Shown here in pieces: positions 26,561 to 48,400 of a DNA stretch of 58,128 bases. The translations under genes and the position numbers were made by a program. The stretch's first letter is position 1; each line of letters starts with the position of its first letter. Source of the stretch: Schmidtea nova (lineage: Eukaryota); contig CM097884.1 in NCBI GenBank assembly GCA_044892505.1, forward strand, positions 125,989,873 through 126,048,000, in the 5' to 3' direction. Below the pieces are notes generated by a model, which had not been told where the DNA came from, searched no databases, and was given only the letters and a program-made list of their open reading frames with translations.

Positions 26561-29500
26561 ATATAAGTAGTATATAATTTTCCGTTTTAATTAGATTTGT
26601 AGAATATAAGAAAATAAAATTATAAATTAGCATAATAAATTAAATATAAAAGTTATTAATTAGCCTGAGTGTAAATTTCATATTTAAGAATGATTGAAAA
26701 TTGAAATATAAAATATTTATTGAATGTTTGTGTATGAATATTCCCTTTTCAATTAGTAACTCGTGCTAGCAAAAATATAAAATATAATAAAGAAAATTAT
26801 TTGAATGATATAAAAAATTTGTATTGTGTTTAAAAATAGTTTTTTTAACATTATGGATGTTCTTAATTTACGAAACAAAACAAATACTAGAACCAATCTG
26901 CCAAAATTGTAATAAATCATATTTCTGCTCTGATTCTTCATTTATAGGTGGTTGTTCATGAACTAGATTTTAATTTTGTAATGTCGATAATGTCGCAAAA
27001 TGTAGCCCAGCTTATTATACTAAAAAATGGCAGCAATTTAAGGTCATGGCCTTACAGTGCTCACAAATACCCCCCCTACATCTTTGACTTGTCCCCTCAA
27101 GTAATCCATGATTTTCTTTGAAAATACCTTTTATGAGCTAACCGCGAAAAGTTTATTTGTCTTGGTTGTTATGAATAAAAAGATGTTTTGGAATTTCACC
27201 TTATTTATTATATTAGACTCCAATTATTGAGCACACCATGCATTTAAATCAGATATATTAATTATATTTTAATAAAACAATTTTTTAGGTTTTTTAAAAA
27301 TAATGTACTCGATTTTGGTATGTATGAATTGCTTTAAAGCTAAAGAAGAATATTTGAGTTAGGATCACGGAAATGTTTTTTAATACTATAAATTAAGAGG
27401 ATTTAATTTTGTGTTACTGAAATAAATATTATTTGGAAATTTAATTATGAGTTTTTATTGTACCGATTAAAATGATGTTGCAACTAACAATGACAATCAT
27501 ATTATATGTATCAACCCGTATATTTTTGCCAAATCATCTTTAATATATGAGCCATATTTTACACAATAATCAAACAAAAAATGCTGAAACATGAAAGAGA
27601 GAATAGCGTGACCTTACTGTAATGTAGACTTAACTAATTTCAAACAAATGATAATATTTGTATTTACTATTTCTGGCTTCATTTTATAAAATTTATCATC
27701 CGAATAACAAATTTTAGGATCTTTTTTTAAATATCAGTAAGATTTAAATTANNNNNNNNNNNNNNNNNNNNNNNNNNNNNNNNNNNNNNNNNNNNNNNNN
27801 NNNNNNNNNNNNNNNNNNNNNNNNNNNNNNNNNNNNNNNNNNNNNNNNNNNNNNNNNNNNNNNNNNNNNNNNNNNNNNNNNNNNNNNNNNNNNNNNNNNN
27901 NNNNNNNNNNNNNNNNNNNNNNNNNNNNNNNNNNNNNNNNNNNNNNNNNNNNNNNNGATGACTATAGATCAAAATTTTTTTTTAAACAATAAAAAAAAAT
28001 TGATCTATAGTCATCATTATGAGAATTATTGATAATAATAATAAAAAAAGATCNNNNNNNNNNNNNNNNNNNNNNNNNNNNNNNNNNNNNNNNNNNNNNN
28101 NNNNNNNNNNNNNNNNNNNNNNNNNNNNNNNNNNNNNNNNNNNNNNNNNNNNNNNNNNNNNNNNNNNNNNNNNNNNNNNNNNNNNNNNNNNNNNNNNNNN
28201 NNNNNNNNNNNNNNNNNNNNNNNNNNNNNNNNNNNNNNNNNNNNNNNNNNNNNNNNNNNNNNNNNNNNNNNNNNNNNNNNNNNNNNNNNNNNNNNNNNNN
28301 NNNNNNNNNNNNNNNNNNNNNNNNNTAATTAGAGAAAAATTAAGTCATTATTTTTCATTTAGAAAACTAAATTCAATGATTCCAACCCCTCCACGCAGCA
28401 ATCTCAAAGCAGTTTCACAAGTCTTCATTTTGACAAACGGTCAGAATCCATTTCCCAGAATAAAAACAATCCTCAAATTCAAGAAAACTGAAAAGCTAAA
28501 AATATAAATAAATTATTCCAAACCATTTTATTTATCTTTATCAATTTACACTACAATCATTCGTTTATTTGTAATAATAATTTATTATGCTAATAATGAA
28601 TGTAACATCATAGATGATAAATATTTAATATTATTTTCTTTTGTTAATATTGTGTTGTTTTATATTTATGAATTGCAAATATATTTTGTAGAAGTTATTA
28701 TGATTTTATATAACTATTTTTTAACATAAAAAGAAATTTGCATAATTATTTTTAATTGTGAAATCTTAAAAATAATAAAGTACCGTTTATTTTGAAAATG
28801 AGACAAGTCCATTTGATTATCTTTAATTTTCTTAAGACATTTTTAAACTACATTTTGTATAACTGCAAAACACACAAAAGCTGGCTACATTAAGGTCGAT
28901 GTTTGTTTGAACTTTTAATGAGCTTTTTAAAGGTTATCACGAAGGTTATCAACTTCAGGACGTTAATCGCCATGGATGTTCCAAGTTACTGCTATCAATA
29001 GGTTAGAAATCTTTCTATTCACTAGACGTGTTAAGCAATAATTGTAATCTTGCTCGGAACTAGATTCGAAAGACTTGATCCTTGATCTTAAGGGAAAAAA
29101 TTGTAGAGGTCAAGGTTATATTAAAAGGTTTTAACAAAAGTCGATTATTAATTTTTATTTTATGTTCTCTATTTTGTTGCTGACCCCATATCATATATAT
29201 TCAAGCTAAATACAAAATTTTTCAAATAATTCAGCCTTGAAATCTCTCTGTCGTGTTCCATTGGTAACTATCCTAGGCACTGCAATAATGGTACATGCTC
29301 GGTCACACTAATAATTTTATTAAAAGAAATCATCAAGTGTCAATAAATTCGTTAGGAAAAATTGCAAATGTTATTTTATAGTTTAAATGAAGCCAACAGA
29401 TAATATTGCTGGGTTCATGGACGGGTTGGTAAAGAGGCTAATGATGGCTAGGGATCTCCCATCCATGATCATGCATAAAATGTCGTAAGTTACACTCGAG

Positions 29501-29841
29501 CGCCCTTGATTATTTCCCTTGATAACCAAGTTGGTGATGCGCAGGGTGATTAAACAATGAGGGGCATGTGAGCACTATTGCTAGGACTACTCCCCCTTTA
29601 TGTTTACGGGTTCACGCGGCCGTGGAAGGACTTACGCAATTATTGTTCTATTGTGTGTGTGATGTCATGTAATTATCAAAAACAAAATTTAAGCACAACG
29701 AAACTACTAATACGATAATACTTAAGCTACTCCTTTCGTTGTGTGACGGGTAATTTAAATTTAATTAAATGAATTAGGTAATTGAAGGAAAACATCAGAA
29801 ATAACAACAACAAAACAAAACGAGTAAAAATTTAATTGAGT

Positions 29842-30449
29842 TCAAATTCTGACATCGTATTTTATTTGTAATATAAATTCTTTGAATATTCCTTCAGGAG
29901 GGAACATCTCTGCTAACCACTCGGCTTCCGACATTTCTGCCATCGTGGTTACTTGTGTCCGCAATTGCTGGGAAAACAGCTTCCTTTGGCGACGGCGCTT
30001 GGAGCCGATTCGTTTTCGCTTATTCGGTTTTCCGGCGGGAGTTGGTGCAGTGGTGGTTTCCCCCCGACTCTGCGTCGTTGTTGCCTCGAGTCCATCGGTG
30101 TCTGTACTGATTGAGCAGGCCACTTTCCGTTCTCCTACCCAATTCTGGTAAGTAATGGGTCGGATTTGTGCTTTTAATTCGGACTCGATAAACGAAGTCG
30201 TCACCGAATGGAGGCATCGGCGCAACTCAATTTTTGTTGCTTCCCATTCGGTGCGATAATCGTCAGCTGTCCTTTGAGCCCTTTCTGTCCGACTCATCTG
30301 CTCCTTCATGCGAGCTGGTGCGAACCAGCTGGTCCGTAAATGCTGAATCTGAGCTTCTGCTTTGGCTCGTAAGGCTTTTTCTTGGTTTAGCTCCTTTTCC
30401 AATGCTCGGCGGGTTCTCCACGCCTTGTCCAATTCTCGCTGTTGGCTAG
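29842..30449 (-). CDS. LTR-encoded ORF B, 3' LTR copy: coiled-coil plus basic R/K-rich segment; likely start MTETSQQ
   Basis: ORF track 29842-30537. The internal ATG at 30449 follows ttgttatttag|T. KPNKRKRIGSKRRRQRK is NLS/RNA-binding-like. The protein is identical in both LTRs. Confidence 0.55.
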
Positions 30450-30651
30450 TTTCCGTCATACTAAATAACAAACCCAATTTATAATGCATCAAACATGTTA
30501 CCAAGATTAATATTATCCGTCGAAGGTAAAAAATCACATGATTAAATAAATAGAAATAATTTTAACTAAGGAAAATCAAAAAAAAAAAACACGGATCAAC
30601 ACCATTTAATTTATTGAAATCATTTAGTTTATAAAAATGTGAATATAATGT

Positions 30652-31152
30652 TTAGTGGAAAACACTTCGCTTGAGGCCGTGAACGGGAGTAATATGCAAC
30701 CCGTGATTGACTGGATTTCTTCGGATGTGAGCCATCGAACAGTTTAGTTTGGGGCGTCCATGGCACGTTTTCGGTAGGTGATTCGGAATCAATCCGAATT
30801 TAAGCAACTTGAGCGGTGAGACATATCCCCAATAGATCACTGTCGTTGGATTTCCTTCGCTGTCTGACACCACTATGACGAACAGAGCTGTCGTCTCCCG
30901 GTCTCTTTCGTCCTGAATTTCCCATCCGGGGCCTCCTCGATATACGATGGTATCCAATCCCCCGGTCCAAATTGAGAATGGACATTTCTTTCCTAGTTCC
31001 CACCGCCATTTATACATCAACGCATTTAGCGTTCTGAGGAGTTCCTGTGGGAGCGACTTCAATTTCTGCTGTTGCGTCCGGATTAGAGGATTTTCGACCC
31101 GTGCCGCCTGACGTTGAGTTGTTAGAAATTTATCCAGTATCGTTGCTTTCAT
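30652..31152 (-). CDS. LTR-encoded ORF A, 3' LTR copy: 166-aa unknown protein
   Basis: Open 166-codon frame with higher GC than its flanks; the ATG directly follows tttttttttatcag|. Confidence 0.5.
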   Translation of the reverse strand: MKATILDKFLTTQRQAARVENPLIRTQQQKLKSLPQELLRTLNALMYKWRWELGKKCPFSIWTGGLDTIVYRGGPGWEIQDERDRETTALFVIVVSDSEGNPTTVIYWGYVSPLKLLKFGLIPNHLPKTCHGRPKLNCSMAHIRRNPVNHGLHITPVHGLKRSVFH

Positions 31153-32033
31153 CTGATAAAAAAAAATATAATGCTAATAAATTTTATTGTGACGAATCCG
31201 TAAATTTTGGTGGGACCTGATAAAAATGCTCTGCTCGTTGATCAATAACACAAAAAAATGTGAAAAGGAGGAATAAAAAAAATATTTTCCAAACTAGTCA
31301 ATTAACACCGTCGCTATGTACAGCGATCGGAATATTAAAATTTTACATATTGTTACCTGCGCTATGTACAGCGATCAGGTTACGATTTTACTTGTTTAAT
31401 CCGTAATGTCGATCCGAACATGTCGTTATTTATGTCTAAATTAAACCATAGTTGAAACATCGAAATCGTCTCGGTGTGTCCGGACATTATTTCGATTAGT
31501 TATGTTGATTCACAAAAATTCGCGTGTAGATGGAAAAAAAAATCGATCTAGTCGACCTGATAATTGATATTGTAGTTTGTTTTCGCCTATCTGATCGAAT
31601 ATTAATGTTAACCACTGTCTACAAAGTGTCCTTGTCCCTGCACAACTTTACCGTACCGTGAAACTTTCAAAACCAAAAATTTAAATCAAATAAAGAATAC
31701 CCATAAAAACTCTGCTCACCATCTTGTGGAACGGTGAAATCCCACATTTACGGCGTACTCCCTCGCAGCGTGAGCTACTGAGGAAGTGAATATATATGCA
31801 TAAGTAAAATAAATGAAATAATAAAATCATCAGAATCATTTACGATAAGTTATATTAAATAAAATCATAGGATCAATAAAACTTATAATGACAATCAAAA
31901 TAATTACTTCCACAGGTTTTCCAGATAGCTTTGAATAAATCGTAAAATAAACGCTTTCACAAAGTTCGTGAATTAATGTTTCTAGACAAAGTCTGTCGAC
32001 AAAATTAGTGTTGTGTTGTTATTTTCGGATCGG

Positions 32034-32075
32034 TATTTATACTGATCCAGTTGGTCAGATTGACCAATCAGGATC
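32034..32075 (-). promoter_or_regulatory. Candidate LTR core promoter: palindromic CCAAT element followed by a TATA box
   Basis: Near-palindrome GATCCAGTTGGTCAGATTGACCAATCAGGATC (32044-32075), then TATAAATA on the minus strand at 32041-32034. An Inr-like CTAATTT lies near 32006. Confidence 0.5.
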
Positions 32076-32636
32076 AGGCCGTCCATCAAAGTAATTTTGT
32101 TATTTTATTTTAATATAAACCATTTTAAATTTCCGGTTCAGATTTCTCGCTGGGTGGTCTCGATTTTTTCAAGTAATTAACCAATTAATTGTACTTTTAT
32201 TTGATTTTATTTATAATTTTCTTATTTCAGACCCCCATACTGCTCGTTCCCGTGTCAATTTGATTTTCTTCCTTTGCTGGAAATTTAGTAATTATTATTT
32301 ATTATTTTATTTTAATTTTTAATTTAGGTTTTTCGAATGTTTTTGTGGTTATTATTTGTATCTATTGTTTGAATTAATACAATATCTTTGCCTTTTTAGA
32401 CCAATTGGTGGGCCCAACATCACTCGGGGACCCCTAAAATTGCGTCCCGCAATTAATTATACATAACTACTTATAACATCATACATAAAAAGTTTTACAG
32501 ATATATACATAAACACAAGAAAATCACTTAAGGTGATAGAATTTATACACATCATGAGATTTGTTATAGGATAGTTGAATATTATCAGATTATTGTCATA
32601 GGATAGTCAAAGGTTCATCAGAGATGTTCACAAAGT

Positions 32637-33197
32637 CTATTCGATCCTCCGGCTCGCATTGGGTTGGGTTTGAGTTCTCTCATTGATTGTAGCTAATTCG
32701 TAGTGGGTCTGAATTTGATCTAGATGTTTTCTCATACGTCTTTGGGTTCGGTTGTCTCGCCTTGATGTTTGATTGACGATGGTTTGTTTCTGTTTGAGGA
32801 TTTTTATCCGGTAGGAGGCGATCAGGATTGTGATTGCGATGGTAGTTATGCTGATTGAAAGGATTATGATGATTGCTATGATCCATTTTTCTTGATATTC
32901 TATTTCAGCTTGGGCTAGGCTTTTTATGGGCTCTCTACCTTCTTTCAGGGTTTTTTGGGTTTCTTTTAGTTTCAGTTGTTGGTTATCGAAGATTTGTTGG
33001 ATTTGATGATCTTGATTGTGGGGATATTTCTGTCGGAATTCGTTGATTTCTTTAATTACTTCTTCGATTAGGCTGTCTACTTTTTGGTAGGTTTTGTCGG
33101 GTAGAACTCGTAATTGGGTTTCGGTAAGTTGTAGATCTTCTCTCTGTAGGGTGATGGTTATTAACCATAGGAGTATTGGTATTGCGAGCTTTCTCAT
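32637..33197 (-). CDS. Accessory 186-aa type I membrane protein (signal peptide, helical ectodomain, TM, basic tail)
   Basis: N-terminal MRKLAIPILLWLITITL; TM WIIAIIIILSISITTIAITILIASY; A-rich codon use like the rest of the element. Confidence 0.75.
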   Translation of the reverse strand: MRKLAIPILLWLITITLQREDLQLTETQLRVLPDKTYQKVDSLIEEVIKEINEFRQKYPHNQDHQIQQIFDNQQLKLKETQKTLKEGREPIKSLAQAEIEYQEKWIIAIIIILSISITTIAITILIASYRIKILKQKQTIVNQTSRRDNRTQRRMRKHLDQIQTHYELATINERTQTQPNASRRIE

Positions 33198-33275: not shown

Positions 33276-34337
33276 TTACACGAGGGTTTCGTTAGGTTCG
33301 TGAAAACCTTCGTCTTGAGGTTCCACCTGATTTATGGGGAGTGGCATCCATATTACCGTACTCCTCCACATTTCCACTTCCTCTCGGTATGTGTGGGATA
33401 TCTGAATCTCTTCATCTAATAAGTATTCCAGATAGTTCGCCTGCTCTGTTAGGGTTTCTATTTGTTTTTCTAGTTCTGCTAATTTTTTCTCTCTCTCTTC
33501 TTTCTCTATCATTTCGGTCACTGCTGCTGTGATACTTGTTTCCTTTGTGGGTACTGGTTTTTCTGTTAGCTTCTTTCTCAGTTCTTCGTTTTCTTTTGTC
33601 AAGTTGGTTATGTTCTCTTCATAACTCTGTTTTGCTTCTTCCATTCTTTCTTTGGTCCTTTTTAATTCTATTTTCTTCTGGGTAATCACTCCTTGATATC
33701 CATTTATATCTCTTTTCATGTTTTCCTCCTTGTGATTCCACATTCCGGTCAGCATACCTTTTAACTGTTCTTGATTGGCTAACTCCTCTCCCATTCTTTG
33801 CACTTGATAAGTTAGTTCTTTAATTTTCTTGGCTTGTTCTCTGATGAATTGTTGTCTTTTCTTACTCCATACCTTATTTGACGCTTCTTGACTGATCTTT
33901 TGCCCTAATTCCTCTTTTAATTCGTCGATCTCTTTAAACAGTTTCCAATCATCGCTGTACGCTGTTCGTTCAATTATCTCCCTGGCTTCCTTGTAAGAGT
34001 CTTTTGCCTCTTTCTTCCAATATCTTGCTTGTTCGGTGATTGACTGAATCTTATGGTCTGTTTTTATCTGTTGTCTATCTCTATCCTCTCGTCGCTCTTT
34101 CATCATCCCTTTGTAGTATTCGTTTTGTTGTCTTAGCAGTTTGTAGACTTCTTCTATTTTTTCTCGACTTTTATGATTCGTTTTCTCGGCTTCTCTTAGT
34201 GCTTGGGTTTGTCTTTCTAATTCCTCCTGTTTTCGATAATAGGCGTGAATCCATATCCCAATCCGCTCCATGTGATTTCTGATCATTTCGTCTTGATGTA
34301 CGGTTACTTCCTGTAAGGTTACCTCTATATTTCCCAT
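33276..34337 (-). CDS. Accessory 353-aa coiled-coil protein, function unknown
   Basis: Long E/K/Q/R heptad-like ORF in the element's sense orientation; no recognisable family motif. Confidence 0.8.
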   Translation of the reverse strand: MGNIEVTLQEVTVHQDEMIRNHMERIGIWIHAYYRKQEELERQTQALREAEKTNHKSREKIEEVYKLLRQQNEYYKGMMKERREDRDRQQIKTDHKIQSITEQARYWKKEAKDSYKEAREIIERTAYSDDWKLFKEIDELKEELGQKISQEASNKVWSKKRQQFIREQAKKIKELTYQVQRMGEELANQEQLKGMLTGMWNHKEENMKRDINGYQGVITQKKIELKRTKERMEEAKQSYEENITNLTKENEELRKKLTEKPVPTKETSITAAVTEMIEKEEREKKLAELEKQIETLTEQANYLEYLLDEEIQISHTYREEVEMWRSTVIWMPLPINQVEPQDEGFHEPNETLV

Positions 34338-34448
34338 TTCTATAATTACAGATAAAAGAATATTTAATCAGTTTTTATTTTTATTGTTTTTGATTATTTG
34401 TTATTTCATATTGTTTTATACAGTTTATTTACATGGTTACTTTCTTCA

Positions 34449-35825
34449 TTACGCCAACCATCCTTTTCTGTCTGTTTTCTCGTGCCTCTCCATCTCTATG
34501 TATAGCGTGTCTGCATACAGTTGCTCCCATAGGTTTTCTTTCCTTATAAACATTGGTTCTCCTGCTGCTAGTCCGCATTCTGTTGTTGGTTTTTCGCTTG
34601 TACTCGTATGTTTGTCTGTTTCAAAGAACTTTTCTACTGGTTTTCCTATACTTTTGATTCTTATAATGACTCCTACTTTCAAGGGCCATTCTATTAGGTC
34701 ATCGTATTCTCCTTTACATAACGAGAAGAATATTGATACGTGTGTTCCTTGTCCTCTCCCGTCTCCATTTGGGTAGACCTTCAATCTTATTTTAACCCCA
34801 TTTTTCCATAAATAAAATGGTGGGCTTATTACTGCTGTTTTCGTCATATTTCTGGCTTCTGCTAGTTTGTCTCTGAAATCTGTTACTTTCCATAGGTAAG
34901 GTGCGATTGGTAAGTCCCTTCTTTCGTCAATTTCTCGTATTAATTGATTATATTGTATTTTCATTCCTTTTCCTAATTCTTCTATGGCTATTATTTTCTT
35001 TTCCATTCTTTCGCGAGTTAGTTCAAACTGCTCTCTTGTTTCTAGTAGTAAACTCATCATTATCTTATGTGATTCTACTTCTTTTTCTAATTTCTGGATT
35101 GTCTGTTCTGTTTCTTTTGTCGTTTCGTTTGTCATTTCCACATGCGTTAGTGCTGCTTCTTCCAAGTGTTGTTTCATTGTTTTTCGCGTCCGCTTTTCCT
35201 TGCATCCATGCTTGTTATATGGACATTCTCTTGGCCTTTCGGTGCATATTTTCCAATGTTCATGTAACTTTATTTCTTCTGTTATTTCGCAATTGTTTGG
35301 ACATTTGCTTACATATTGTCCGCATACTTTCTCCTCTGTTATATTTAAGTGTTCTTCTTCGATTTTTCTCCTTGTTTCTCGAGTTTCACAATACTCGCAT
35401 GCGATTTCTTCTTCTTTACATTCTTCCTTGTGTTGTTTTCTCTTCTTTAGAGTTATTGTCTGTTGGCATTTCTCGCATTCGGCTCTCTTTTCCTCGCATT
35501 TTTCCATATGGTTTTCCAGATTACTTATTTGTCCTTGCCATGTACAAGGTGTATTTACGCACTCCGTTGTGGTGCTCATAATTTCTCTTTGGGTTGCTTT
35601 GTCCATTCTGGTTTCATCCAACACTATTTTTCCTTCCTTACATTCTGGGCATGTTGTTATTCCTGTTGCATCTAATTCTTGTATACATTTTGTACATATT
35701 CTACATCCACATATCGTTTGTCTGGGTTCTCGCAATAAATTATTACATTTTCCGCATGTGAGCCTCTTGCTCCATTTTCTGTTTTCTAATCTCAAGATTT
35801 CGATTATTCGTTCTTCTCTGTCCAT
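34449..35825 (-). CDS. TRAF: Full-length TRAF-family protein (RING, TRAF zinc fingers, coiled coil, MATH)
   Basis: RING CGKC...CGCRICTKC...CPEC; fingers such as CVNTPCTW...HMEKC and CPYNKHGC...H; MATH signature SPPFY...KIRLKVYPNGDGRGQGTHVSIFF...GEYDDLIEWP. Confidence 0.93.
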   Translation of the reverse strand: MDREERIIEILRLENRKWSKRLTCGKCNNLLREPRQTICGCRICTKCIQELDATGITTCPECKEGKIVLDETRMDKATQREIMSTTTECVNTPCTWQGQISNLENHMEKCEEKRAECEKCQQTITLKKRKQHKEECKEEEIACEYCETRETRRKIEEEHLNITEEKVCGQYVSKCPNNCEITEEIKLHEHWKICTERPRECPYNKHGCKEKRTRKTMKQHLEEAALTHVEMTNETTKETEQTIQKLEKEVESHKIMMSLLLETREQFELTRERMEKKIIAIEELGKGMKIQYNQLIREIDERRDLPIAPYLWKVTDFRDKLAEARNMTKTAVISPPFYLWKNGVKIRLKVYPNGDGRGQGTHVSIFFSLCKGEYDDLIEWPLKVGVIIRIKSIGKPVEKFFETDKHTSTSEKPTTECGLAAGEPMFIRKENLWEQLYADTLYIEMERHEKTDRKGWLA

Positions 35826-35919
35826 TTTCTACAATAATATATACATTCGACTTGTCATTTATTTTTGGATTTTTTCTTGTTTTTATTTTTACATATTTAC
35901 AGTTTTCCGCTTTATTTAT

Positions 35920-36276
35920 CTATGGCTCATTCGTTGAATCTGGTTCCGCTTCGTTGTTTAATCTATTTATTACCCAACTCATCCATCCTTCTTCGGATCC
36001 TTCTCTTTCTCCTCGTGTTAAATGGTTTATTTCTATTGCTTGTCTTTGATTGGTGTTGCTTATCGTTTGATTTTCCCTGGTGAGTTCAGTTATCGCTCTT
36101 TGTTGTTCCTCTATTCTGTGTAATTGTTCGAAACAATTGTTATAACTTTCTGATAGTAACATTTGTTTTTCCGCTAATTGGTTCTGTAATGAGTTGACTG
36201 TTCGTACTAATAAATCGCATTGTGCTTTCCATCTCATAGCCATAGTTATTTCGGTTGTTTCGTCCTGTTCGGTCAT
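35920..36276 (-). CDS. Accessory 118-aa coiled-coil protein
   Basis: First ORF after the polyprotein; heptad-like Q/E/L pattern; same TAG-AAA-ATG start context as its neighbours. Confidence 0.65.
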   Translation of the reverse strand: MTEQDETTEITMAMRWKAQCDLLVRTVNSLQNQLAEKQMLLSESYNNCFEQLHRIEEQQRAITELTRENQTISNTNQRQAIEINHLTRGEREGSEEGWMSWVINRLNNEAEPDSTNEP

Positions 36277-36402: not shown

Positions 36403-39400
36403 CTATACCATCATTATCGTCTTTTCTTCGTATCGTTCTTCCTCTTCTATTTGTTTCCAGAATTCTTTACCTTTCGTTCTTCTTTGAAATTCTTTCTGTA
36501 TCTCCTCTGGTATTTCTATTCCTAGTTTCATGATTTTAATATCTGGCCATTGTATGGCTGTCGCTTTGTTTCTCTTTCTGTATCTCCAATATACTATTAT
36601 GCTTGTCGTCAGTATTCCATATGCTATTAATATTCCTATACTCATTAATCCTATTATTGTTTTTCCACTGTTTGTTTCTCTTTTATTCTGGTTCGCTTTT
36701 ATCTCATTTTGGGTTTGAGCCTCTGGCTTCTTCTCTTTCGGTATTTGACTCTTGACTTTGTTCATTACTTCTTGGGTAGACCAATGGTGGTTTAGTAGTT
36801 GTTTGACGTCATTTTTCGTCGTCTGGTTTTCTACGCCTCCTGGTTCGGTCTGTTGTGATAGTTTCTCTGAGATCTGATATAATCCGCATTCTGGTTTTTC
36901 TGAACCTTTTCTGGTGAAGGTACATATCGCGTATGTCCTATTTACTTCCATTTTCTTTAATTCGACTTTTTCTTTATTCTTTATTTCTTTACAGTGGGTT
37001 AGGTTGTCTTCTTCTACTTCTGGTTTATGTTTTGTCCAACATATTACTTTAACTGTCTGATCGAGTCCTGTTAATGTCAGAGTTCTTTCTGTTTTAGTTA
37101 GTTCTTCTTCATCGAATTTCAGAGTTTCTCCTTTTTGGAATGTCTTGCAATTTTCTATTCCGGGTTGATCTTCTTGGGTTCCTTTCTCCCATATACATAT
37201 ACTTCCTTCTTCATTCATTTGTATTTCTTGTATTTCGATTTCCTTGTTTGTTCGTGATTCGTCGCTTGTCTGAACTTGGTATTCTCTTGGTTCGTTGTAC
37301 CATACCCAGCATATTTTGTTACTTTGGTTTTTTCTCCTTATTGTCATAGCCATTTGTTCTATTCTTATTCCTTTATCGATACGTTTGGACATTGCTATTA
37401 TTAATGCTATGCATACGAAATCTTGTTGGGGTGATACTTCTTCTCTCGTGTTATTTGTGCTTCTCTCCCCTTCTCCTGGTTTGTCCGTTGTGTTTTTCAT
37501 CTGAGTTGCTGGTTGATCTATTGTGTTTTTGATTTCTTTCTTTGTTGGTTTTACTCTATACCATTCAAGTCTAGGCGTTTCATATTTTTGGCATACGACT
37601 GTCTTAGGTAGCCCCGACTTCTTTTCCTTTTCTATTATGCATATCCGATGCATGGTCCCTCCATCCATTTCTTCTATTCGTATTATATCCTGGTCGGATT
37701 TTCGGATTATGCATTTTAGTGGGTTATTTTCTCCAATTGGTTCATCTTCTCTATACCAACATATTTTCTCGACTTCCTGGACATTTATTATTTTTATCCC
37801 TGTCTGTGGGTTTATTGCTTCTTCCCCATTGATTAATGTCAATATTATTGTTAGACCCAACCATTTTGAACTCTGCGGTAGGCTTCTGGTTCGCCTTTCA
37901 TATTTTTTCTCTTCTCCTTTAATCTCTTTTATTTCCTTGTCTTTGTTGTTCATTCCTAGTTTTGCGATTTTTGCTTCTTTCTTATTCCTGGTCGGTTTTG
38001 GTTCTTCTCGTGCGTTTTCTTCCAGTATTTCAACTCCATGGCTTGTATTGTATATATTTGGCCATTGGGTTGCCGATTTCCTTGGGTTTATCTTGCGTAT
38101 CCATATAGCTGATAACGCGATTATTACGGGTATGGTCGCTGTTAATATTCCTAAGCCAATTAATTCTTTGATTTGTTTATTCTCGTCTGTTTGTATAGAT
38201 TTGCTTTGGTTGAACATTATTCCGTATTGTCCTTTTAGTTTTCTCATTAATTGTTCTCGTTCCTCTTGCTTTCTTTTGACTTCTTTGATAACTTCTTCGG
38301 GTGTCCATTTTGCTTGAGGGTCGATTATTATTTTTTCTGCGTCCATTTGTTCATTCGTTTGGCTTAGTTCCCTGAATTCGAGTTTCCTTGTTATTCCTTT
38401 TGATGTCGCGTTTACTGGTGTATAGTAGGTTTCGCATCTTTCTTGTTGGTTTCTTAGTGCGTCCATTATTTCTATTGCGCATACTTCGTACTCGCTATTA
38501 AATTGTAGTTTTTCGATCTTGATTTCTTTATTTGTTTTTCTGCATTCTCTTGATTGTCTTCTTATATGTTTCTGTACTATTATCCAACATATTTCTAATG
38601 TTTTATTCTCTATTTTCCATAATGTTAGAGTTGCTGATGTTTTTCTCTCGGGTTTCGTCGTAACTTCTTGGTTTGTTGGTTGTTTATTGTTTTTAAAGGT
38701 AGTGGTGTACTTCGGTTTTCCTTTGTTTCGTTGTTTCCTTTTATTTTTCCGTGTTAACGTTTTGGTTCTTGTTCCGGATGACGTTGTATATATTCCGCAT
38801 TCTAGGTCGTTTATCGTTATCTGATCATTTTTCTTTACCAAACATATTTCGTAGGTTTGTTTACTTTCTAAACCTTTTATTTGAATCGTCGTTGTTCCTG
38901 TGTTTGTTCGACATTGTGGTGTCGTTCTTTTATTTACTTCTTTTTCGTACTTCCTCCAGCATACTCCTTTCACATTTGGTTCTATCTCTTTTATTTCTAA
39001 TGTTATGTTTACTTTCCGCTTGATTTGTTTATTTCTCTTCCTCGTTCTCCTTCTGAACTTTATTACCTCTCCAGGTTGAAATGTTTTACATTTTGTGGTA
39101 CCTTTCTTGTTCGTTTCTTTTTCTAGTAGGCATAGTTTGTACGTCTTATCTGCTTTTACTTCGGATATTTTAATTACTTTATTCGTTGTTGGTTTTCGAC
39201 TTTTCCTTATTTCGTTTACGCCGATTTCCTCGTTATTTCTCGCCCAACATTTTATGTTAGTATTCTGTGTATCTTCTACTTCTGTTATTGTCATAGTTTC
39301 AATTTCTATCCCTTCCTCTAATCGTTTTATCATTATTAGTATGAGTGCTAAACATAATACTTCCATTTGGTAGGACACTCTTTCGGTTTCGTTTGTGGCA

Positions 39401-42400
39401 ACTCTTGCTTCAGGCCTCTCTATTGTAATTCGTAGGGTTGGTGTTGTTTGCTTATCTGTTGCCTGGGGTTTTTTGTTTTCTGTTCCCTGTGTCTCTGTCC
39501 TTCCACATTTTCCGATGATGTAATCTCCTTTGGGTGACTGTTGTATTGTCATGGCTGCTTTAGGTGTTTGGTATTTTGCACATGCGATTGTGTTGTGTGA
39601 TCTTGGATGCTTTTGTTTTCTAACGGTGCATATTTTGTACCAGGTATTTAGATCCAGGTCGTTGATCTCTATGATTTCTTGCTCGTGTTTTGAGATTCTG
39701 CAATCCATCGGGCTATTTTGTTCCGTGATTTTGTCCTTTTTTGACCAACATACTCGTTCGATTCCTTTTGCGTTTTTTATTTGTATTATTGCCCTTTCTT
39801 CACATGTCATTCCTTGACTTGGATTAATTAACGTTATAATCATTGTTAGTAATAGTAATTCTGGTTTGAAGAATGGTTTTATGGTTGATTTATAACCTGT
39901 TCTTTGGGTGTCATTTTTATCTCCTTGGTCGTTTGTTCCTTGTTCTCTCTCTTCATCTCTTTGTTTTTCTTCTTCACCTTTCTTTTCTTCCTTGTCTCGT
40001 TTCTTGTCTTTTCTCTCGTTTTCCTCTTTATCGGGTGGTTCGTGATCGCTTGAATTTTCTGAGTTGTTACCGTCGTCACTATCTGTGTTGTCATCTCCCC
40101 CTGGCTCGTCGAAAATGTCGTCCTCGACATTGATTTCTTCTATCAATTTTGCGTATGCTAATGTCGTTAGATTACTTGCCTCAAATTCTTGTGTTTCTAT
40201 CTGCTCCGGTATTATTTTGTTAGTGGATTTATATTCTAAGATTTCCCTTTTGGCCTTGATCCAATTGTTGATGTATGTCTTCATTAATTCTTTCCATTTG
40301 CCTGTGTATTTTCCCTCTCTCGGGTTGTTTGTGACTCTTAGATCCTTTCTTTCCATAAACATCTTCAATATCTCTGGCCATTTATATGTTATTAGGGCAC
40401 TTCTTATACACCAGTTTTGGTTATGTTCTGTAAACTCATTAATCTTGAATGCTGGTTCGTTGGTATTCGGATTTATCCACGTAAGTATTGATTCTGTTAG
40501 TTCGACGTTGTTCATCATTGCTAGTACACTGGGTTTCCTGACCGTATCAGTTAGGTAATCTATTTCTTCCTGATTTGAGATTGTTTTAATGAAGTTGACC
40601 ATTTCCCAATTATGTGTTAGTAATGCTACATCCAAAATTGAATTATCTTTATCTGTCTTTCCTGTAAGTCCTGCACCTGCTTTGTATAGTTCTTTTAATA
40701 CCTTTGTTTTCGTTTTGGCCCTTGCTGCAAATACCATAAGTGTATCTCCTTTCTCGTCTACCATATTCATATTGCTTCCGCAATTTAGCATTACTCTTGC
40801 AATTTCCATTACTTTTCTATCTTTGCCATTTCGTAGAGCTCTGTGTATGGGCATTATTCCGTCCTTTGGTAGTAAAAATGTTACTGGCATCTCCTTTTTT
40901 ATAGTTGTTATGTCGTTACCATTGTATGTTCCTTTTGCGTATGCGTGTACTTTTTCAACTAATGCACCGAGTATTTCCAGTGCATGTTTACTATTCTCAA
41001 ATTCCGGTAACAATTCTTTTGCTTTTTCTTGTATCGCATCTAGTCTAGCTTGGTATGGTGCTTCTGCTTTGAAGAGTGGTGTGAGTTTCTTGTTGCTTTC
41101 TCTTTCTTTTTTCTCTAAAACCTGTTTGCATTTTTCGGGATGGTTTAAAATTTTTACTAATTCCTCATATTCGCTTACTATTGTCTGGTATTTCTCGTTA
41201 AAATTGTTTATGTCTTTGTATGTTATTAGTTTGTCAAGTGGTTTCGCACACCATTTCCTAATCTTGTTGAATAAGGCTTCCTTCTCTTTATCGAATTTGT
41301 ATTCTTCTTCATTCTTTGTGATGTTTATGTTTCCTCTATCTAATAAGGTTAGTAATGTCTTCTGATCACAAGTAAATTTCAAAAGGTATCTTAACAGTGC
41401 GTTTTGTCCTTCGCTGTATACTTCGTTTATGTCTAAGACCCATGTATCATCTTCTGGTCGTTTCCATTTGATTAACTTACGGATCGTGTTGCATTTACCA
41501 ATTTTGATGGCCTCTTTGATAATGTCTCCTTTAACTAGTTCGTCTATCTCCCAAGTGGAGTTAGCTATTATGTATTTCAGCATTGGTTGGTGAGAACTCC
41601 ATATTACGTGATTTAGCACTGTTTTATCTTCTCTATCTCGTTCTGTCCAACTGAAACGGGCTTTTATCAGCAGATCTACCATTTCTTTATCCGCTTGGTA
41701 GATTGCTGCTGTCATTAATGGAGTTTCTTGTTCACGATTCCCCACGTCCAAGTTTTGGTTTGTTTCCTTTGCGATTTTTAGGAATTCTTTTGCTCTTTCA
41801 ATGTTTTTACACTGAATCGCATTATGTAAGGCTGGTTGTCCTCCTACATCTTTTAATAAGAGTATTTCAGGGATTTTTATCAATAATTCAGAAATAATTG
41901 GTTCGGTTGGTAATCCTTGTGCGTAACGGCTAATTATGTGTCTAATGTCCCTTGATATGCCTGCTTCGTCTCTAACATGCCATCTTCCCATTATCTCTCT
42001 CGCCTTCAATAGGATTTCTTTATTTCTGATTTCTTTTTGCCTTATTTCTGTTTTGTCGTCTTCGCTGGTGTTTGCTCTGAGCATGTTTATCCTGGCTGTT
42101 TGTGATCTGGTTATTATTCGATTCTCTGGTGTTGTAGTTATCGTTTTAGGCACCTTCTTACATCTGCAGGTGTTTACATATATGGGTCGTATTAACGGTC
42201 GATTTATTAGCTTAACTTTGACATTGTTGTCCTTTTTGTATATAATTTCATAAGGTCCTCTTCCAGGTCTTTGGAGTTTCTTAACAGTTCCTGGTATTAT
42301 TTCGGGAGTTTCTATTATCACCCAATCTCCTGGTTTTAGGTCGTTCGCTTTAACATTTTTCTTCTGGTCGTGTAAATCCTTATAACTTTCCTGATAAAAT

Positions 42401-45400
42401 TTAATGTTGAGTTCTGCCGTTTTCCATATTTCCTGCATCCTTTCTTTGAATTTGGTTACGTAGTCGTCGTCTTCCATATATTGCGATAATGGTGGCTGGT
42501 ACTCCAAATCTATGGGCATGTTGCATTCTCTGCCATACATAAGTTGAAACGGGCTTAGTTTTGTTGCGGCATGTATCGACATTCGGTATGCCATTAAACA
42601 TAATTTTATGTATTCATCCCAGTCAGTTTGGTGTCTGCTGACGTAATTTGATAACATTCTAATCAATGTGCCGTTGAATCGCTCCGTTTGTCCATTCGTT
42701 TGCGGGTGATATGGTGAAGTTCTCAATTTCGCTATTCTGAAATAGTTCGTCACCTCGTTTAATAACTCACTCATAAAATTAGTTCCTTGGTCTGTGAGTA
42801 TTTGTTTTGGAGTTCCATATCTGCAGCATATTTCTTCCACTAGAATTTTTGCTACGGTTTTTGCTTTTTGATCTTGCATGGCAAATGCTTCCGGGAATTT
42901 CGTCAGGTAATCCGTTATTACCAGTATGTAAATGTTTCCGTTTAAGCTTTCTGGTAATGGTCCTATTACGTCCATTGCTATAGTTGTCATTGGCTCTGCT
43001 GGTATCGGCATTGGTTGTAGCGGGTTCTTCCATTTCTTCCCACTATCCTTTCTAGTTGCGCAAGTTAGACAATTTTTAATCCATTCTTTTATATCTTCTT
43101 CCATTGTTCGCCAATAATATTTTTGTCTCATCCGATTTATTGTCTTTTTCTCTGACATATGACCTCCTAATTTCCCATCATGGTACTGGATCATTATCTC
43201 TTTCCTTCTGTTTTCCGGTAAACACATCAATCTCTTTTCTCCGTTTTGTATTAACAACCATCCTTTATTTATTATGTAGCGATGTTGATATTTTCCTATA
43301 TGTTCCTTTAGTTCCTTATTATCCTTGAATACCTCCATGTTTCGAGATGTTAGGAACTCTATGATCTGTCCCAATTCTTTGTCTTCCTGTTGATCTTTCT
43401 TTAACTCACTAAAGTCCAAATCTTCCGCTATTAACACACAAATTCGTTGTACATCAGGATCGGTTAATTCCGGAAATGTCAGTCTTGACATACAATCTGC
43501 ATTCGCATTCGCTTTTCCTGATTTAAATTTTATGTCCGGTGAGTACTCCTGTAACTGCATTGCCCATCGCATTAATCTACTGGATGTTTCCTTATGTTGT
43601 CCTAACCACACAAGCGGTTGGTGATCTGTGGTTATACAGATGATGTGTCCCCATAATAAATATTTAAAGTGTTTAATTGCTAGTATAATTGCTAACGCTT
43701 CTCGCTCGGTTACTGAGTAATTTTTCTCATGCTTTTTGAATGTCCGGCTATAATATCCGATTACACGTTCTTTTCCTTCATCGTCGTATTGTCCTAATAC
43801 TGCTCCTGCTGCATATCCGCTTGCATCCGTTGCAAGTAGGAATGGCTTCTTGAAGTCTGGGTGTACCAATATGGGTGCGGTTATCAGTTTATCTCTCAAT
43901 GTTTCAAAGGCTGTTTGCTGTTCATCTCCCCATATGAATGATACATCTTTCTTTACCAGCTCCTGTATAGGTTTTGCAATTCCGGCGTAATCTTTTATAA
44001 ACTTTCTATAATATCCACATAATCCAAGAAATTCTTGTATCTGGGTTATTGTTTTTGGTACTGGACATTCCTTTACTTTGTCGATATTTCTAGGATCCGG
44101 TTCTTTTCCTTTTGCTGACACTATATGTCCTAAAAATGTTACTTTCTCTTTCGCCCAATCACACTTGGATGGCTTGAGTTTTAACTTCCATTGTCTAAGT
44201 CTAACGAATACATCTCGAATATCCTGTATGTGTTGTTCAAACGTGCTAGAGTAGATTAATAAGTCGTCGATGTAGACCATACACTGCTTTATTCCATGGG
44301 TGACAAAATTCATGCATCTCTGAAATGATGCTGGTGCGTTTGTTAATCCAAAGGGCATCTTTCGAAATTGATATAGGTCTCTACCGATGGTAAAGGCAGT
44401 TTTCTCTTTATCTTCTTCCTTCATTTTTATTTGCCAGTATCCGCTTTTCAGATCTAGTGATGTAAAATATGCTGCTCCCTGTAATGTTAGTAGCATTTCG
44501 TTGATGTCTGGTAATGGGTAAGTATCTCGTTTTGTCACTGTATTCAATCTTCGATAATCTATGCAGAATCTCTGTGTTCCGTCTTTCTTCTTTACCATTA
44601 CTACTGGAAATTGCCAGGGTGAACAACTTGGTTCGATTACTTCTGCATCCAACATTTTCTTCACTTCTGCTTCTGCTACTGCTTTCTGTGCTTCCGCTAA
44701 TTTGTACGGCCTTAATGCAATTGGTGTTTCATCTGTTAATGGTATTGTATGTAGTGTGACATCACATGTTCCTAGATCCAAATCGGATGCTGCAAATATA
44801 TCCTTATACTCTATCAGGAGTTTTTCTAGCTGCTTCCTTTGATCCTCATTTAATAATTCACTGTCGATATTCCAGGTTGGTTCTTTATCTTTCTCTGCCC
44901 CTGCTATTGGTAGTTCGATATCCATCATTGGGGTTAATTTACCTAATCTTTCGTTTTCGTAGATTATTTTATCCTCTTCGTCGAAATTTACCACGTTTAT
45001 TGGGATTTCTCCATTATCATTTATGTTGACTAATCCTCTTGCCATTGGCAACGCTTTTCTTTTCTCGAATCTCTTACTTGGTTCGAAAATCATATCGCCT
45101 TGGATTGTCGGATCTATTTTTACGTAACATATTTTTTCCTTTCTTGCCGGTATTATCATTTGCTTTGAACTTGTCACTTTGGCTTCTATTGCGCATATTT
45201 GTCCTGTGCGATCCTTTAGTCTCATTGTTCCGAGGTCGATTACAATCTCTTTAAATAGTGCTGGCATCAAATCTGTTCCGATAATGCAAGGTACGCTTAA
45301 TGCTGGTATGACAGCTACGTACGTATCGATTTCCGTATTTAAGTGGCGTATTTTTACCCACCATCTTCCTGCTACTTCCACAACTTCTTTGCTACATGCA

Positions 45401-48400
45401 ATTACATGGACGTTTGTCCTTTCTATATCTCGTCTTTGCTCTTGTGGTATCCATTTGATGTCGATGGCGGAAATGTTTGCTCCAGTGTCGATCATTGCTT
45501 CGATTTCTCTTCCGTTAATTTCTATTGTCGTGGTTAGTACTGGGCCTGTGTTTGATGACATTACTGCGATCGTATGTGCGTCTCCTTGTGGATCTACACT
45601 TCTACATCTTCTCATTTTATAATCTTCTGGTATCATGGGGTATACATTTGTCATTGGCAACATTTGCATCGTGCTATTTTTTCCTCCTTGTAGTGGTTCT
45701 TGATACATTGTTGGCGGAGGTGCGTAACATTTCCATGCGTCGGCTGGATTCTTTTCGATGTATCGTGGTGCTTGGTTCTTGTACACTTGTCCTCCCTTAT
45801 AGTCGTCGTCGTCATCATCGTCGTCACTCGAATCATTTTGGGTTTTATATCCTTTCACCCTCTCCCATAAACCTTTTCTTTCTCTCTTGAGCTGTTGTCT
45901 TGCTTGTTCGTCATTCATTATCTTTTTAAATTTTCGTCCTACTTCTTCATCTGTTCCCTTCATTTTTGCTAGTATCTTTAGGAGTCTTTTTATTCGATGG
46001 ATATCTTTTGAGTGTCCATGCAACACCATTGTTTTCGCAAGGAATGGTAAAAACCCTACTATCATTTTCCAATTCACTTTCTTTTCTCTCTTGTATATAT
46101 CGAAACACGCTAACATTTGCGTTATTATTACTCTGACGATTTGGATTATTAATATGACCCCCAGTATTCCCGCCATCATTTGTCCAAATATCAGGAATCT
46201 TCCCCACATTGCTTTCATCATATTTTCTGTGGCTTTCTTGAAATGTGCTGGTGACAACAACAGTTCATAATTCGGTCCTTCTCGATAATCCGTTCCTCCC
46301 GTTATTGTTACGATATTTGATAGTAATGCTTCTCTTCTCGCTGGAAATAATATATTCTGCCTTGCTGCTTCTAAATCCTTTGGACTATATATTCCGTTAT
46401 TTGAGACATCCACGTCGCTGAATTGCCTATCCTTTGACAACTGCATTAGCTCGAATTCTCTTGGTGCTATCACTTCGGATCTTCCTGGGAACATAACCCA
46501 TTTACCATCTGGTTTCTGATAAAGTGGTCCATACGCATTACTACAGTTGAATGGATTTGGTTCAAACCCTGGTGGATTGATGATTCTCGTCACTGGTTGA
46601 ACGTATCGTACTTTTCCTTTGTAGTCGATTTCTAACTCGTTTGTACAGGTTCCAGGTTTCAACTGTGTTGTTGCTGCTAACGATGCGTGTGTCTTTTCAC
46701 AAATGTATACATACATTGCTTCTCCAACCACTCTTCCGAAATGTCCTTCTCTCAGTGGTAATAATGGCATCGCACTATCTGGATTCGTAATTGCTACGGC
46801 CAACTTTGTCTTTAATATTTCTCGATTCAGTATACAATCATTGTTTATCAGATCGTAGTACACTTTTTGTAATGAGGCTTGTCCTCTATGGAATAGGAAA
46901 TCCATTTTATTATTCACATATAGGTGTAGTTTGATATCCATTGTGTCGATTTTGGGTTTCGCATTTGGCACTTCTTGTTTTGACACATATATTCCTGGAT
47001 AATTCGTTTCGTATACCGTTGTACTACACTTAAGGGTTGCTTTCCCTTTTATGAACCTCATTCCTACATCCTGATTTGTGGTTATCAACACTGTTGGTGT
47101 GGCTCTCATCTCTATCCGTCTTTCTCTATGATCTGGTTTCAGTTGTCTTTTATTCTCTAAAGCTTCCTTGAGATGCTTTGCTCTAGCTTTGTCGTCATCG
47201 TCTTCTTCCTGGAACGTTTTTCCTTGGATTTCGTCGAACTTTGCTCCTTGTAGCAGTTGTAATTGACATTCGTTCACCTTTGGTTTGTACACTAATGTTG
47301 ACATTCCCGTTTGACACATGCTCCTGTCGATTTTACACATGGATAACGTTTTCATTTCTCCCGTTGTGGGTTCGAAGAATGCTTCGTAGCTTTTTAGTTC
47401 GACTATATACGTATCCATCACCACTAAGTTGGTTGCGAGTGTTCTTAACATCGGGTACGTTTCTCCTTGACAATATCCTTCTCCTCCCGTAATCCGTCCT
47501 GCTACATAGTACGTCTGTTGCATCATCATTCCTGGCTTTCCTTTTATCTTGATTTTATCTCTTGTTGTTACTTCTCCATGTTTAAACAATGCTTCGCAGT
47601 CCTCTCCTTGTAACACGATTGGTTCTCTTTCCGTTCCTGGCATGACAATTGCTGAATAATGTCCTCTCCCGCAGTAGAATGCGAATCTCGTCTTCTGCAC
47701 CTTACATTCATTTACCATTGTCTTTATGAGTTCTGCTTCTTGATACACGTGGTACCATTGTTCCTTTTTAATCTTTTGCAACTCTACTGGAGTTGCATCT
47801 TTGCATTGCTCCGTGCCTCTCAATGAATACTTTTCTCCTAACTTCATTTGGTCGCAATCAAACACTTCGAACGCTGTTGCGCTATCGGTGCTAATCATCC
47901 ATATCAACATCATCATTATTATAGAACTCAAATTCATTGATGACTTCGCGTTTCTTGTTCCTGCTTGTTCTTTTCCTAACTCTTCCAATATTTTTTCGAA
48001 TTTCTTTTTCATATTCTTGGCTTGTGTTTTCTTCTGGTTAGTTTTTATAAATGTTTCCCATCCTCCTTTGTTAATGACGTAGGGTTCTATTTCTCTAGCT
48101 ATAATCTTTGCGGTAATTTTTATATGTCTCTCTAATGCAGTGGGTTTTGGTCGACCTCTACTCAGTGTCAACAGATTGTAGATCGTGTATGCAATAGCTA
48201 TTACGTATTTGTTATCTGTTTCCGCTCCTTCTGTCAATTTCTTTATTAACATAGTGGTTCCTTGCCAGTCTAAATGATTTGACTTCGTCTTTTCTTTTAT
48301 GAATTCCGGTAAGATGGGTGCAATTGCGCTGTGCAATGACTTCGCCTTTTCGCTTATCTCAGTTATACGCCAGTATTTTTTCAATTCCGGATCAATTATT

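What the first reader, a model, noticed from the sequence alone, without database searches (positions are those of the whole stretch)
34449..35825. Intronless, full-length captured TRAF with a His-to-Cys RING variant
Seen: RING, zinc fingers, coiled coil and MATH intact in one exon, with the element's A-rich codon bias. The RING has CGCRIC where TRAFs typically have CGHRFC. Established: TRAF2/3/5/6 transmit TNFR/TLR signals. Inference: an anciently retro-captured host gene that has ameliorated to the element and may act as an agonist or dominant-negative. Mobile copies could also inflate apparent host TRAF family expansions.
Basis: partly seen in the sequence, partly recalled or inferred. Interest (0 to 1): 0.72.

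Follow-up and report, generated by a model that had tools for sequence, protein, structure and literature searches.

The report
Whole TRAF gene in giant retrotransposons
Giant jumping genes of a kind known from planarian flatworms carry an intact, conserved cell-signalling gene (TRAF) in well over a thousand copies, likely taken once from the host and likely used to help keep their cells alive; the odd cysteine and the lack of introns are shared with host TRAFs and are not special to the element.

Summary
The ORF is a 458-aa single-frame TRAF (RING, zinc fingers, coiled coil, MATH) in a young 29,132-bp Burro-type LTR element. Its codon use matches the element, and pairwise dN/dS among copies is about 0.12. 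The gene sits at the same place in at least five element families (36-77% identical). The RING motif QTxCGC has 1,822 genomic DNA matches against 21 for the control. The His-to-Cys RING is not an element novelty: 8 of 8 RING-bearing host TRAF frames examined, three Dendrocoelum TRAFs and three echinoderm TRAFs have it. Those 8 host frames are also uninterrupted, so lack of introns does not show retro-capture. Element TRAFs form one clade that groups with triclad CGC-type TRAFs. The MATH inside the Burro1-type polyprotein joins that clade; sampled host MATH genes do not. The residues TRAF6 uses to bind Ubc13 are not kept, so a scaffold role is likelier than TRAF6-type ligase activity. The commonest family (1,195 motif hits) puts TRAF directly before a BIR-RING IAP gene. 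MATH/TRAF cargo in Burro is in print (PMC6431247), and this scan has found it before on other copies. Function and expression are untested.

The parts
34449..35825 (-). Full-length TRAF ORF, 458 aa, second of four 3' accessory ORFs
35640..35756 (-). RING domain C24-C62 with eight Cys ligands; C41 (codon 35703-35705) replaces the usual His; K26 and N28 stand at TRAF6 I72 and L74
   Evidence: residue roles from PMC5702613 passages
35139..35561 (-). Five zinc-finger-like Cys/His clusters (residues about 89-229), read from the sequence
   Evidence: Pfam zf-TRAF 166-220; invariant C/H columns
34917..35153 (-). Long helix with heptad pattern (residues 225-303), predicted coiled coil
   Evidence: 13 of 23 a/d positions hydrophobic in the best register
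34488..34898 (-). MATH / TRAF-C domain (310-446), the most conserved part (dN/dS 0.05-0.08)
35829..35831 (-). TAG after a T-rich tract, 3 nt before the TRAF ATG: putative splice acceptor
   Evidence: TAG in 60 of 60 locus rows (54 distinct copies); 121 genomic copies with T against 0 with A/C/G; use as an acceptor not shown
29407..32419 (-). 3' LTR, 3,013 bp
55527..58128 (-). 5' LTR (runs on to 58538, past the window end)
29403..29406 (.). Target-site duplication ATAT (partner just past the other LTR, outside the window)
54685..55188 (-). 167-aa ORF ending in an IAP-type RING, no BIR
   Evidence: Pfam zf-C3HC4_3; tblastn with a sister family's IAP hits only this RING in the window
51328..52878 (-). 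gag with CCHC knuckles
36403..51264 (-). 4,953-aa polyprotein: fusion glycoprotein, protease, RT, RNase H, integrase, ankyrin repeats
35920..36276 (-). Accessory ORF, 118 aa, conserved across families (dN/dS 0.07-0.11)
33276..34337 (-). Accessory ORF, 353 aa, coiled-coil-like, conserved (dN/dS 0.08)
32637..33197 (-). Accessory ORF, 186 aa, with two hydrophobic stretches
55478..55479 (-). GT of a putative splice donor just after the 5' LTR
   Evidence: sequence; 22 copies with GT, 0 with a non-G at the first base; inference only

Best explanation
This is an intact TRAF gene carried and kept under purifying selection by Burro-type giant LTR retrotransposons, likely captured once from the planarian CGC-type TRAF lineage and likely acting as a trimeric scaffold that tilts host TRAF/IAP signalling towards survival of the cell in which the element is expressed. 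Shown: the architecture, copy number, selection, codon adaptation and grouping with triclad TRAFs. Inferred: (1) the gene is expressed from a spliced subgenomic RNA through the acceptor 3 nt before its ATG; (2) the coiled coil and MATH trimerise, alone or with host TRAFs, and the MATH binds receptor-tail or adaptor peptides; (3) the all-Cys RING still binds zinc but probably does not dock Ubc13 as TRAF6 does, so ubiquitin transfer would come from a partner such as a host TRAF or an IAP-type ligase. Confidence that it is functional cargo is about 0.95; the figure below is for the pro-survival scaffold mechanism.
For: Selection: pairwise dN/dS is 0.125 in 27 best-scoring copies and 0.118 in 29 full-length copies of a positional sample; 25 of those 30 positional copies are intact; shared variants give 0.12 and singletons 0.26-0.35; between families A-E dN 0.12 and dS 0.87. 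The same gene position is found in five families at 36-77% identity. Tree: 5 element rows form a clade (100/99) inside a 100/99 group of host and triclad CGC TRAFs. AU tests reject joining the element rows to the TRAF2-like (p 0.0002), TRAF3-like (p 0.0002) or TRAF4-like (p 0.02) sets. TRAF6 I72/L74, whose mutation abolishes Ubc13 binding (PMC5702613), are K/N here, K/K in B, N/K in E, Y/N in D and V/R in C. Arg-link is kept (R80) and Arg-ZF1 is not (S101), by counting along the alignment with numbering; that paper proposes that TRAFs which do not bind E2 can still act as RING heterodimer partners. The commonest family places TRAF directly before a BIR+RING IAP ORF (1,195 motif hits). Mammalian TRAF2 trimers recruit cIAP (PMC6262405 passages). 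RNAi of host planarian TRAFs increases cell death (PMC7586133 abstract). Burro1's IAP protects stem cells from apoptosis (Lee 2026, seen only as summarised in PMC13465017).
Against: No expression data and no binding or activity data. The window's own family has no BIR domain, so a TRAF-IAP module would need a host IAP or one supplied by another family. The sister family's IAP has a single BIR whose type was not determined, whereas TRAF2 binding in mammals uses BIR1. The element's MATH groove differs from TRAF2/3 (AAGEP for ASGCP), so its ligands are unknown. The one tested viral TRAF in the papers seen promotes apoptosis (PMC3352826). The RING stays under purifying selection (0.12-0.15), which also fits an active ligase. 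The main tree uses 34 of 57 rows: I removed 23, long-branch rows among them, after the 57-row careful run did not finish, and in the 57-row quick tree the same grouping had only 56% support. Four of five element rows have biased composition, and nested versus sister placement is unresolved (p-AU 0.36).
Confidence: 0.5

Rival explanations
1. Decoy or dominant-negative: the element TRAF occupies receptor tails or enters host TRAF trimers and dampens wound or immune signalling that would otherwise silence or kill element-expressing cells.
For: MATH is the most constrained domain (0.05-0.08). The Ubc13-docking residues and Arg-ZF1 are not kept. The Burro1-type lineage retains a MATH of the same origin inside its polyprotein, where Pfam found no RING or TRAF zinc finger in the 1,411-aa frame scanned.
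Against: The RING and zinc fingers are conserved across five families, which a pure decoy would not need. Blocking host TRAF would be expected to increase cell death in planarians (PMC7586133 abstract).
Confidence: 0.25
2. Active E3 ligase with a different E2: the all-Cys RING ubiquitinates a host restriction factor or an element protein recruited through the MATH.
For: All eight ligands and a clean final CxxC are kept in all five families, more regularly than in several host paralogues. RING dN/dS is 0.12-0.15 and Arg-link is kept. E2 surfaces vary among TRAFs (PMC5702613).
Against: The two E2-facing positions vary freely among families (K, N, Y, V and N, K, R).
Confidence: 0.15
3. Self-contained signalling: the TRAF binds the cytoplasmic tail of one of the element's own membrane proteins, in the way EBV LMP1 recruits TRAFs (recalled).
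For: The polyprotein C-terminus and the 186-aa ORF have hydrophobic, membrane-like stretches followed by short tails (sequence).
Against: No PxQx(T/S/D) motif lies in those tails; the only two matches are in the polyprotein's N-terminal part. The commonest TRAF-bearing family lacks most of the polyprotein.
Confidence: 0.08
4. Neutral passenger or recent host retrocopy.
For: None found beyond the absence of expression data.
Against: dN/dS is 0.12, the best identity to any host TRAF examined is about 30%, and the gene is kept in five families.
Confidence: 0.02

Closest known systems
Burro / GYPSM1 giant Ty3/gypsy elements of planarians (PMC6431247, passages seen; Jurka 2007 and Grohme 2018 not seen)
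   Same: About 30 kb; roughly 5,000-aa polyprotein with env-like fusion protein before the protease; ankyrin repeats; MATH_TRAF_C cargo. The review already notes a MATH encoded by a separate accessory ORF in a Dugesia tigrina element and proposes interference with apoptosis and ubiquitination.
   Different: The passages name only a MATH_TRAF_C domain, in the polyprotein or an upstream ORF. Here it is a whole RING-to-MATH TRAF in a 3' accessory row, gag is a separate ORF and there is no BIR.
Burro1 B-IAP (Lee et al. 2026 Dev Cell; not held, seen only as summarised in PMC13465017)
   Same: Host-derived apoptosis regulator carried by a Burro element.
   Different: B-IAP is BIR+RING and functionally tested; this is a TRAF and untested. 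Whether that paper describes the TRAF could not be checked.
Triclad host CGC-type TRAFs (host loci L062, L074, L076, L077, L078, L080; Dendrocoelum lacteum 'TRAF-2/4/5'; Dugesia japonica TRAF2-like A)
   Same: Same architecture and CGC RING (the Dugesia record is partial and lacks the RING); single coding frame in the host loci; nearest group in the tree.
   Different: Only 26-31% identical; host-like codon use; not in Burro elements.
Vertebrate TRAF2/3/5/6 (PDB 1kzz, 3knv, 7l3l, 3hcs, 5vo0)
   Same: Domain order and fold.
   Different: C3HC4 RING with His; TRAF6 has I72/L74 and Arg-ZF1; different MATH groove residues.
Megalocytivirus viral TRAF, ISKNV ORF111L (PMC3352826, abstract and passages)
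   Same: Virus-borne TRAF with RING, coiled coil and MATH.
   Different: 296 aa, carried by a large DNA virus of fish, binds TRADD and promotes apoptosis; sequence relationship not tested here.

Membership tests
TRAF family (RING-bearing type) | C-terminal MATH / TRAF-C domain | tested here: met
   Pfam above cut-off; PDB sequence hits E 4e-23; Foldseek E 3e-17
TRAF family (RING-bearing type) | Coiled coil before the MATH | tested here: met
   Predicted helix 225-303 at high pLDDT; heptad pattern. Prediction only.
TRAF family (RING-bearing type) | N-terminal RING and zinc fingers | tested here: met
   Alignment to TRAF6/5/2 N-terminal structures, E 1e-13 to 6e-11; zf-TRAF above cut-off
TRAF family (RING-bearing type) | Canonical C3HC4 ligand set | tested here: not met
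   Cys at ligand 4 in 27 of 27 best-scoring copies. Shared with host and other animal TRAFs, so it marks a subtype, not exclusion from the family.
TRAF family (RING-bearing type) | Trimer formation and receptor-peptide binding | not tested
TRAF6-type K63 E3 ligase | Ubc13-docking I72/L74 and Arg-ZF1 | tested here: not met
   K26, N28, S101 by alignment (PMC5702613)
TRAF6-type K63 E3 ligase | Ubiquitin chain-building activity | not testable with these tools
   needs an in vitro assay
Burro-type giant Ty3/gypsy elements | About 30 kb, LTRs, target-site duplication | tested here: met
   29,132 bp, 3-kb LTRs, ATAT
Burro-type giant Ty3/gypsy elements | Giant polyprotein with env-like region before PR-RT-RH-IN and ankyrin repeats | tested here: met
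   against the description in PMC6431247
Burro-type giant Ty3/gypsy elements | gag fused to the polyprotein; BIR present (Burro1) | tested here: not met
   gag is a separate ORF; no BIR in the window. It is a sister family, not Burro1 itself.
Burro-type giant Ty3/gypsy elements | Sequence identity to published Burro1-4 | not testable with these tools
Retro-captured (processed) host gene | Lacks introns that the host parent has | tested here: inconclusive
   The 8 RING-bearing host CGC TRAF frames examined are uninterrupted too, but they were picked for long open frames; no direct parent was identified

The most novel reading that the evidence does not exclude
The Burro clade carries a captured TRAF-IAP survival module. 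One ancient TRAF capture persists as a whole gene in most families and as a lone MATH in Burro1-type polyproteins. A non-autonomous family of over a thousand copies has shed gag, RT and integrase but kept TRAF next to IAP. Together these copies would act as a large, mobile, element-encoded layer of planarian cell-death control that outnumbers the host's own TRAF genes more than tenfold.
Probability: 0.25. Interest if true: 0.78.

Novelty: new variant of a known kind. Interest (0 to 1): 0.42.

Why it matters
It sharpens a published but coarse note (a MATH domain in Burro) into a testable claim: a whole signalling adaptor is retained under strong selection across the clade, often next to an IAP. 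If it works as proposed, Burro-host mutualism involves a pathway module and not only one anti-apoptotic protein. In practice, TRAF counts, expression values and RNAi reagents in planarians should be screened for element-borne copies. The all-Cys RING is best treated as a marker of a triclad TRAF lineage.

Tried and rejected
His-to-Cys as an element innovation: rejected. A His-type TRAF RING in this genome: the QTxCGH pattern gave 21 hits against 22 for the control, and none of the 21 matched TRAF; the pattern would miss RINGs with other flanking residues or an intron. Intronlessness as proof of retro-capture: rejected as a test. Host MATH cluster derived from elements: not supported for the 20 host rows in the MATH tree. 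Expression: no RNA holder was listed, which is no evidence either way. Four runs of unrecorded kind were laid on 32450-36700 and showed no joint at the TRAF acceptor among the rows displayed. A second lay spanning donor and acceptor gave no result. Genomic copies of a spliced TRAF RNA: none by two exact patterns. The 121-to-0 acceptor count is weak, because only one or two mutated copies would be expected by my rough estimate. Complex prediction of a sister-family TRAF trimer with its neighbouring BIR: tool not available, nothing folded. The 57-row careful tree did not finish. The pattern was mis-specified (1 hit) and was replaced. ARAGORN found no tRNA in the window. The primer-binding site was not identified. 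Grohme 2018 and Lee 2026 are not held. No supplementary files were read; they may bear on novelty.

Full report
OBSERVATION. The ORF at 34449-35825 (minus strand) encodes 458 aa without interruption. Pfam finds MATH and zf-TRAF above cut-off but no RING family. The RING is nevertheless clear from alignment to TRAF6, TRAF5 and TRAF2 N-terminal structures, with CGCRIC opposite CGHRFC. An AlphaFold model from an 18-sequence alignment has mean pLDDT 87 (pTM 0.39, as expected for an elongated chain) and a helix at 225-303, and its listed fold matches are all TRAFs. Four-fold sites are 72% A, against 60% in the element polyprotein and 25-40% in 11 host TRAF frames.

CONTEXT. The ORF is the second of four small ORFs after a 4,953-aa polyprotein (fusion glycoprotein, protease, RT, RNase H, integrase, ankyrins). 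A separate gag and an IAP-type RING ORF lie upstream. The element is 29,132 bp, with LTRs 99.83% identical and an ATAT target duplication, so this copy is young. The layout matches the Burro elements of planarians as described in PMC6431247 (passages). The nearest named proteins are triclad TRAFs, so the host is very likely a planarian.

COPIES. A DNA search found 561 candidates and scored 40 at 97-100% identity. An exact 23-mer in the RING has 154 copies. The degenerate motif QTxCGC has 1,822 hits against 21 for the control; QTxCGH has 21 against 22, none a TRAF. I fetched 17 of the 1,822, hand-picked for different codon variants, plus one locus. All 18 carry TRAF together with other element genes. 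They fall into at least five families, 36-77% identical in pairs. One 18-mer accounts for 1,195 hits. In the three intact copies examined, that family lacks gag, RT and integrase and has a BIR+RING IAP ORF directly after the TRAF.

SELECTION. Pairwise Nei-Gojobori dN/dS is 0.125 for 27 best-scoring copies (30 less 3 tandem near-duplicates) and 0.118 for the 29 full-length copies among the first 30 motif hits on contig C1, of which 25 of 30 are intact. Six loci are in both samples, and both samples favour young copies. The second was chosen on an exact RING motif, so its RING values and its Cys41 count are circular. Variants shared by several copies give 0.12 and singletons 0.26-0.35, as expected if selection acts in the active lineage. 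MATH is the most constrained part. Between families, dN/dS is 0.14 (A-E) and 0.17 (A-D); deeper pairs are saturated.

THE CYSTEINE AND THE INTRONS. From the MATH search I fetched 12 loci chosen for long open frames that were not of the element type; they yielded 11 TRAF frames. Eight have a RING in frame with the MATH, and all eight have CGC. None of the 11 loci shows DNA similarity to the element; four have distant hits (25-37%) to its pol, which I read as unrelated gypsy fragments. Among 161 database proteins, ligand 4 was His in 87, Cys in 16, another residue in 16 and not parsed in 42; 150 of them came from a profile built on CGC sequences, so this is not a frequency estimate. Named Cys-type proteins include three Dendrocoelum lacteum TRAFs and three echinoderm TRAF3-like proteins. 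The substitution is therefore inherited from the host lineage and has arisen elsewhere. The absence of introns cannot distinguish capture of spliced RNA from capture of an already single-exon coding region.

ORIGIN. In a 34-row tree (23 of 57 rows removed by me, long branches among them; LG+G4) the five element TRAFs are a clade (100/99) inside a 100/99 group of host and triclad CGC TRAFs. AU tests reject joining them to TRAF2-like, TRAF3-like or TRAF4-like sets (p 0.0002, 0.0002, 0.02) but not to the L062 clade (p 0.27), and do not reject a sister position to all triclad rows (p 0.36). In the 57-row quick tree the element clade held (96) but the triclad grouping was weak (56). No host TRAF examined exceeds about 31% identity, so the capture is old or the gene evolved fast. 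In a MATH-only tree of 49 rows, the seven element rows, including the MATH inside a Burro1-type polyprotein, are separated from all 20 host rows (99/97). A single capture is thus the simplest reading, and the host's tandem cluster on C2 is a separate expansion. By my hand count about 77 of the 150 best MATH hits are dispersed element-type copies (8 verified by fetching) and about 73 are host-type; both are lower bounds.

MECHANISM. Counting along the zebrafish TRAF6 alignment with the numbering of PMC5702613 (passages): the Ubc13-docking I72/L74 correspond to K26/N28, Arg-link to R80 (kept) and Arg-ZF1 to S101 (not kept). The docking positions vary among element families. This argues against a TRAF6-type ligase but leaves a partner or scaffold role, which that paper proposes for TRAFs that do not bind E2. 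Adjacency to an IAP in the commonest family, TRAF2-cIAP binding in mammals (PMC6262405, passages), the survival role of host planarian TRAFs (PMC7586133, abstract, passages and section 8) and the reported anti-apoptotic role of Burro1's IAP (second-hand) make a pro-survival scaffold my first choice (0.5). A decoy (0.25), an active ligase with another E2 (0.15) and signalling from the element's own membrane proteins (0.08) remain. Against the first choice: this family has no BIR, and ISKNV's viral TRAF is pro-apoptotic (PMC3352826, abstract and passages). Expression probably needs splicing, since a TAG after a T-rich tract lies 3 nt before the ATG in 60 of 60 rows (54 distinct copies), but no spliced form was seen.

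WHAT IS KNOWN. MATH_TRAF_C, BIR and ankyrin cargo in Burro, with the MATH sometimes in its own accessory ORF, is in print (PMC6431247). TRAF expansion in planarians is in print (PMC6109357, passages). Burro elements are expressed and piRNA-controlled in S. mediterranea (PMC8532177, passages). PMC11410931 (passages) has no TRAF mention in its main text. Searches (listings only, apart from the papers named) showed no description of a full-length TRAF in an LTR element or of the CGC RING. However, Jurka 2007, Grohme 2018 and Lee 2026 were not seen and no supplements were read, so novelty is provisional. Earlier notes of this scan reached similar conclusions on other copies; they are not independent evidence. 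I had noted the host CGC motif and the acceptors before that look-up.

VERDICT. Real, functional-looking cargo of a known kind of element, more complete and more widespread than the passages seen describe. The flagged cysteine is ordinary for triclad TRAFs. New variant of a known kind; interest 0.42.

Noticed in passing
L134, L135, L136 with upstream stretches L154, L155, L157 (G000:C1): The commonest TRAF-bearing family (1,195 exact motif hits) looks non-autonomous in 3 of 3 copies checked: RING ORF, then a protease+ankyrin ORF with no gag, RT or integrase, then TRAF directly followed by a BIR+RING IAP ORF.
   Followed up: partly
window 33197, 34337, 35825, 36276 and sister families: All four 3' accessory ORFs have YAG ending 2-3 nt before the ATG, three of them after a T-rich tract. 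Only 25 of 531 ATGs in the element's interior have that combination. This suggests subgenomic splicing or spliced-leader trans-splicing.
   Followed up: partly
L065:4670-8902, L066:795-9998: Burro1-type elements with MATH inside a gag-containing polyprotein are present in this genome; their MATH groups with the accessory TRAFs (99/97).
   Followed up: partly
G000:C2 about 405-455 Mb: Dense cluster of host MATH/TRAF genes, many in tandem, with 160-210-aa open frames; the sampled ones form their own clade apart from the element.
   Followed up: partly
window 33276-33320 (minus strand): The C-terminus of the 353-aa ORF, (Q/E)DEGF-x-E, is kept in families A-E. It resembles an acidic beta-TrCP degron-like motif (recalled, untested).
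   Followed up: no
L067:4722-6170, L068:1527-5438, L148:4707-6656: Internally deleted copies make in-frame fusions: TRAF to the next ORF, or polyprotein to MATH.
   Followed up: no
window 53907-54212: 32-bp and about 30-bp tandem repeats between the RING ORF and gag.
   Followed up: no
window 36403-39300: The last 300 codons of the polyprotein evolve faster than the accessory ORFs (dN/dS 0.32). The C-terminal part has internally repeated segments and membrane-like stretches.
   Followed up: no
P0039, P0047, P0083: Echinoderm TRAF3-like proteins also have the CGC RING and group apart from the triclad ones, so His-to-Cys arose at least twice.
   Followed up: partly
window 16325-17587, 20152-21182, 22548-23997: Three short elements with long inverted ends (MITE-like) in the flanking DNA.
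   Followed up: no
window 4722-5159: A 145-aa ORF with CCHC-like knuckles, probably a gag remnant of another retroelement.
   Followed up: no
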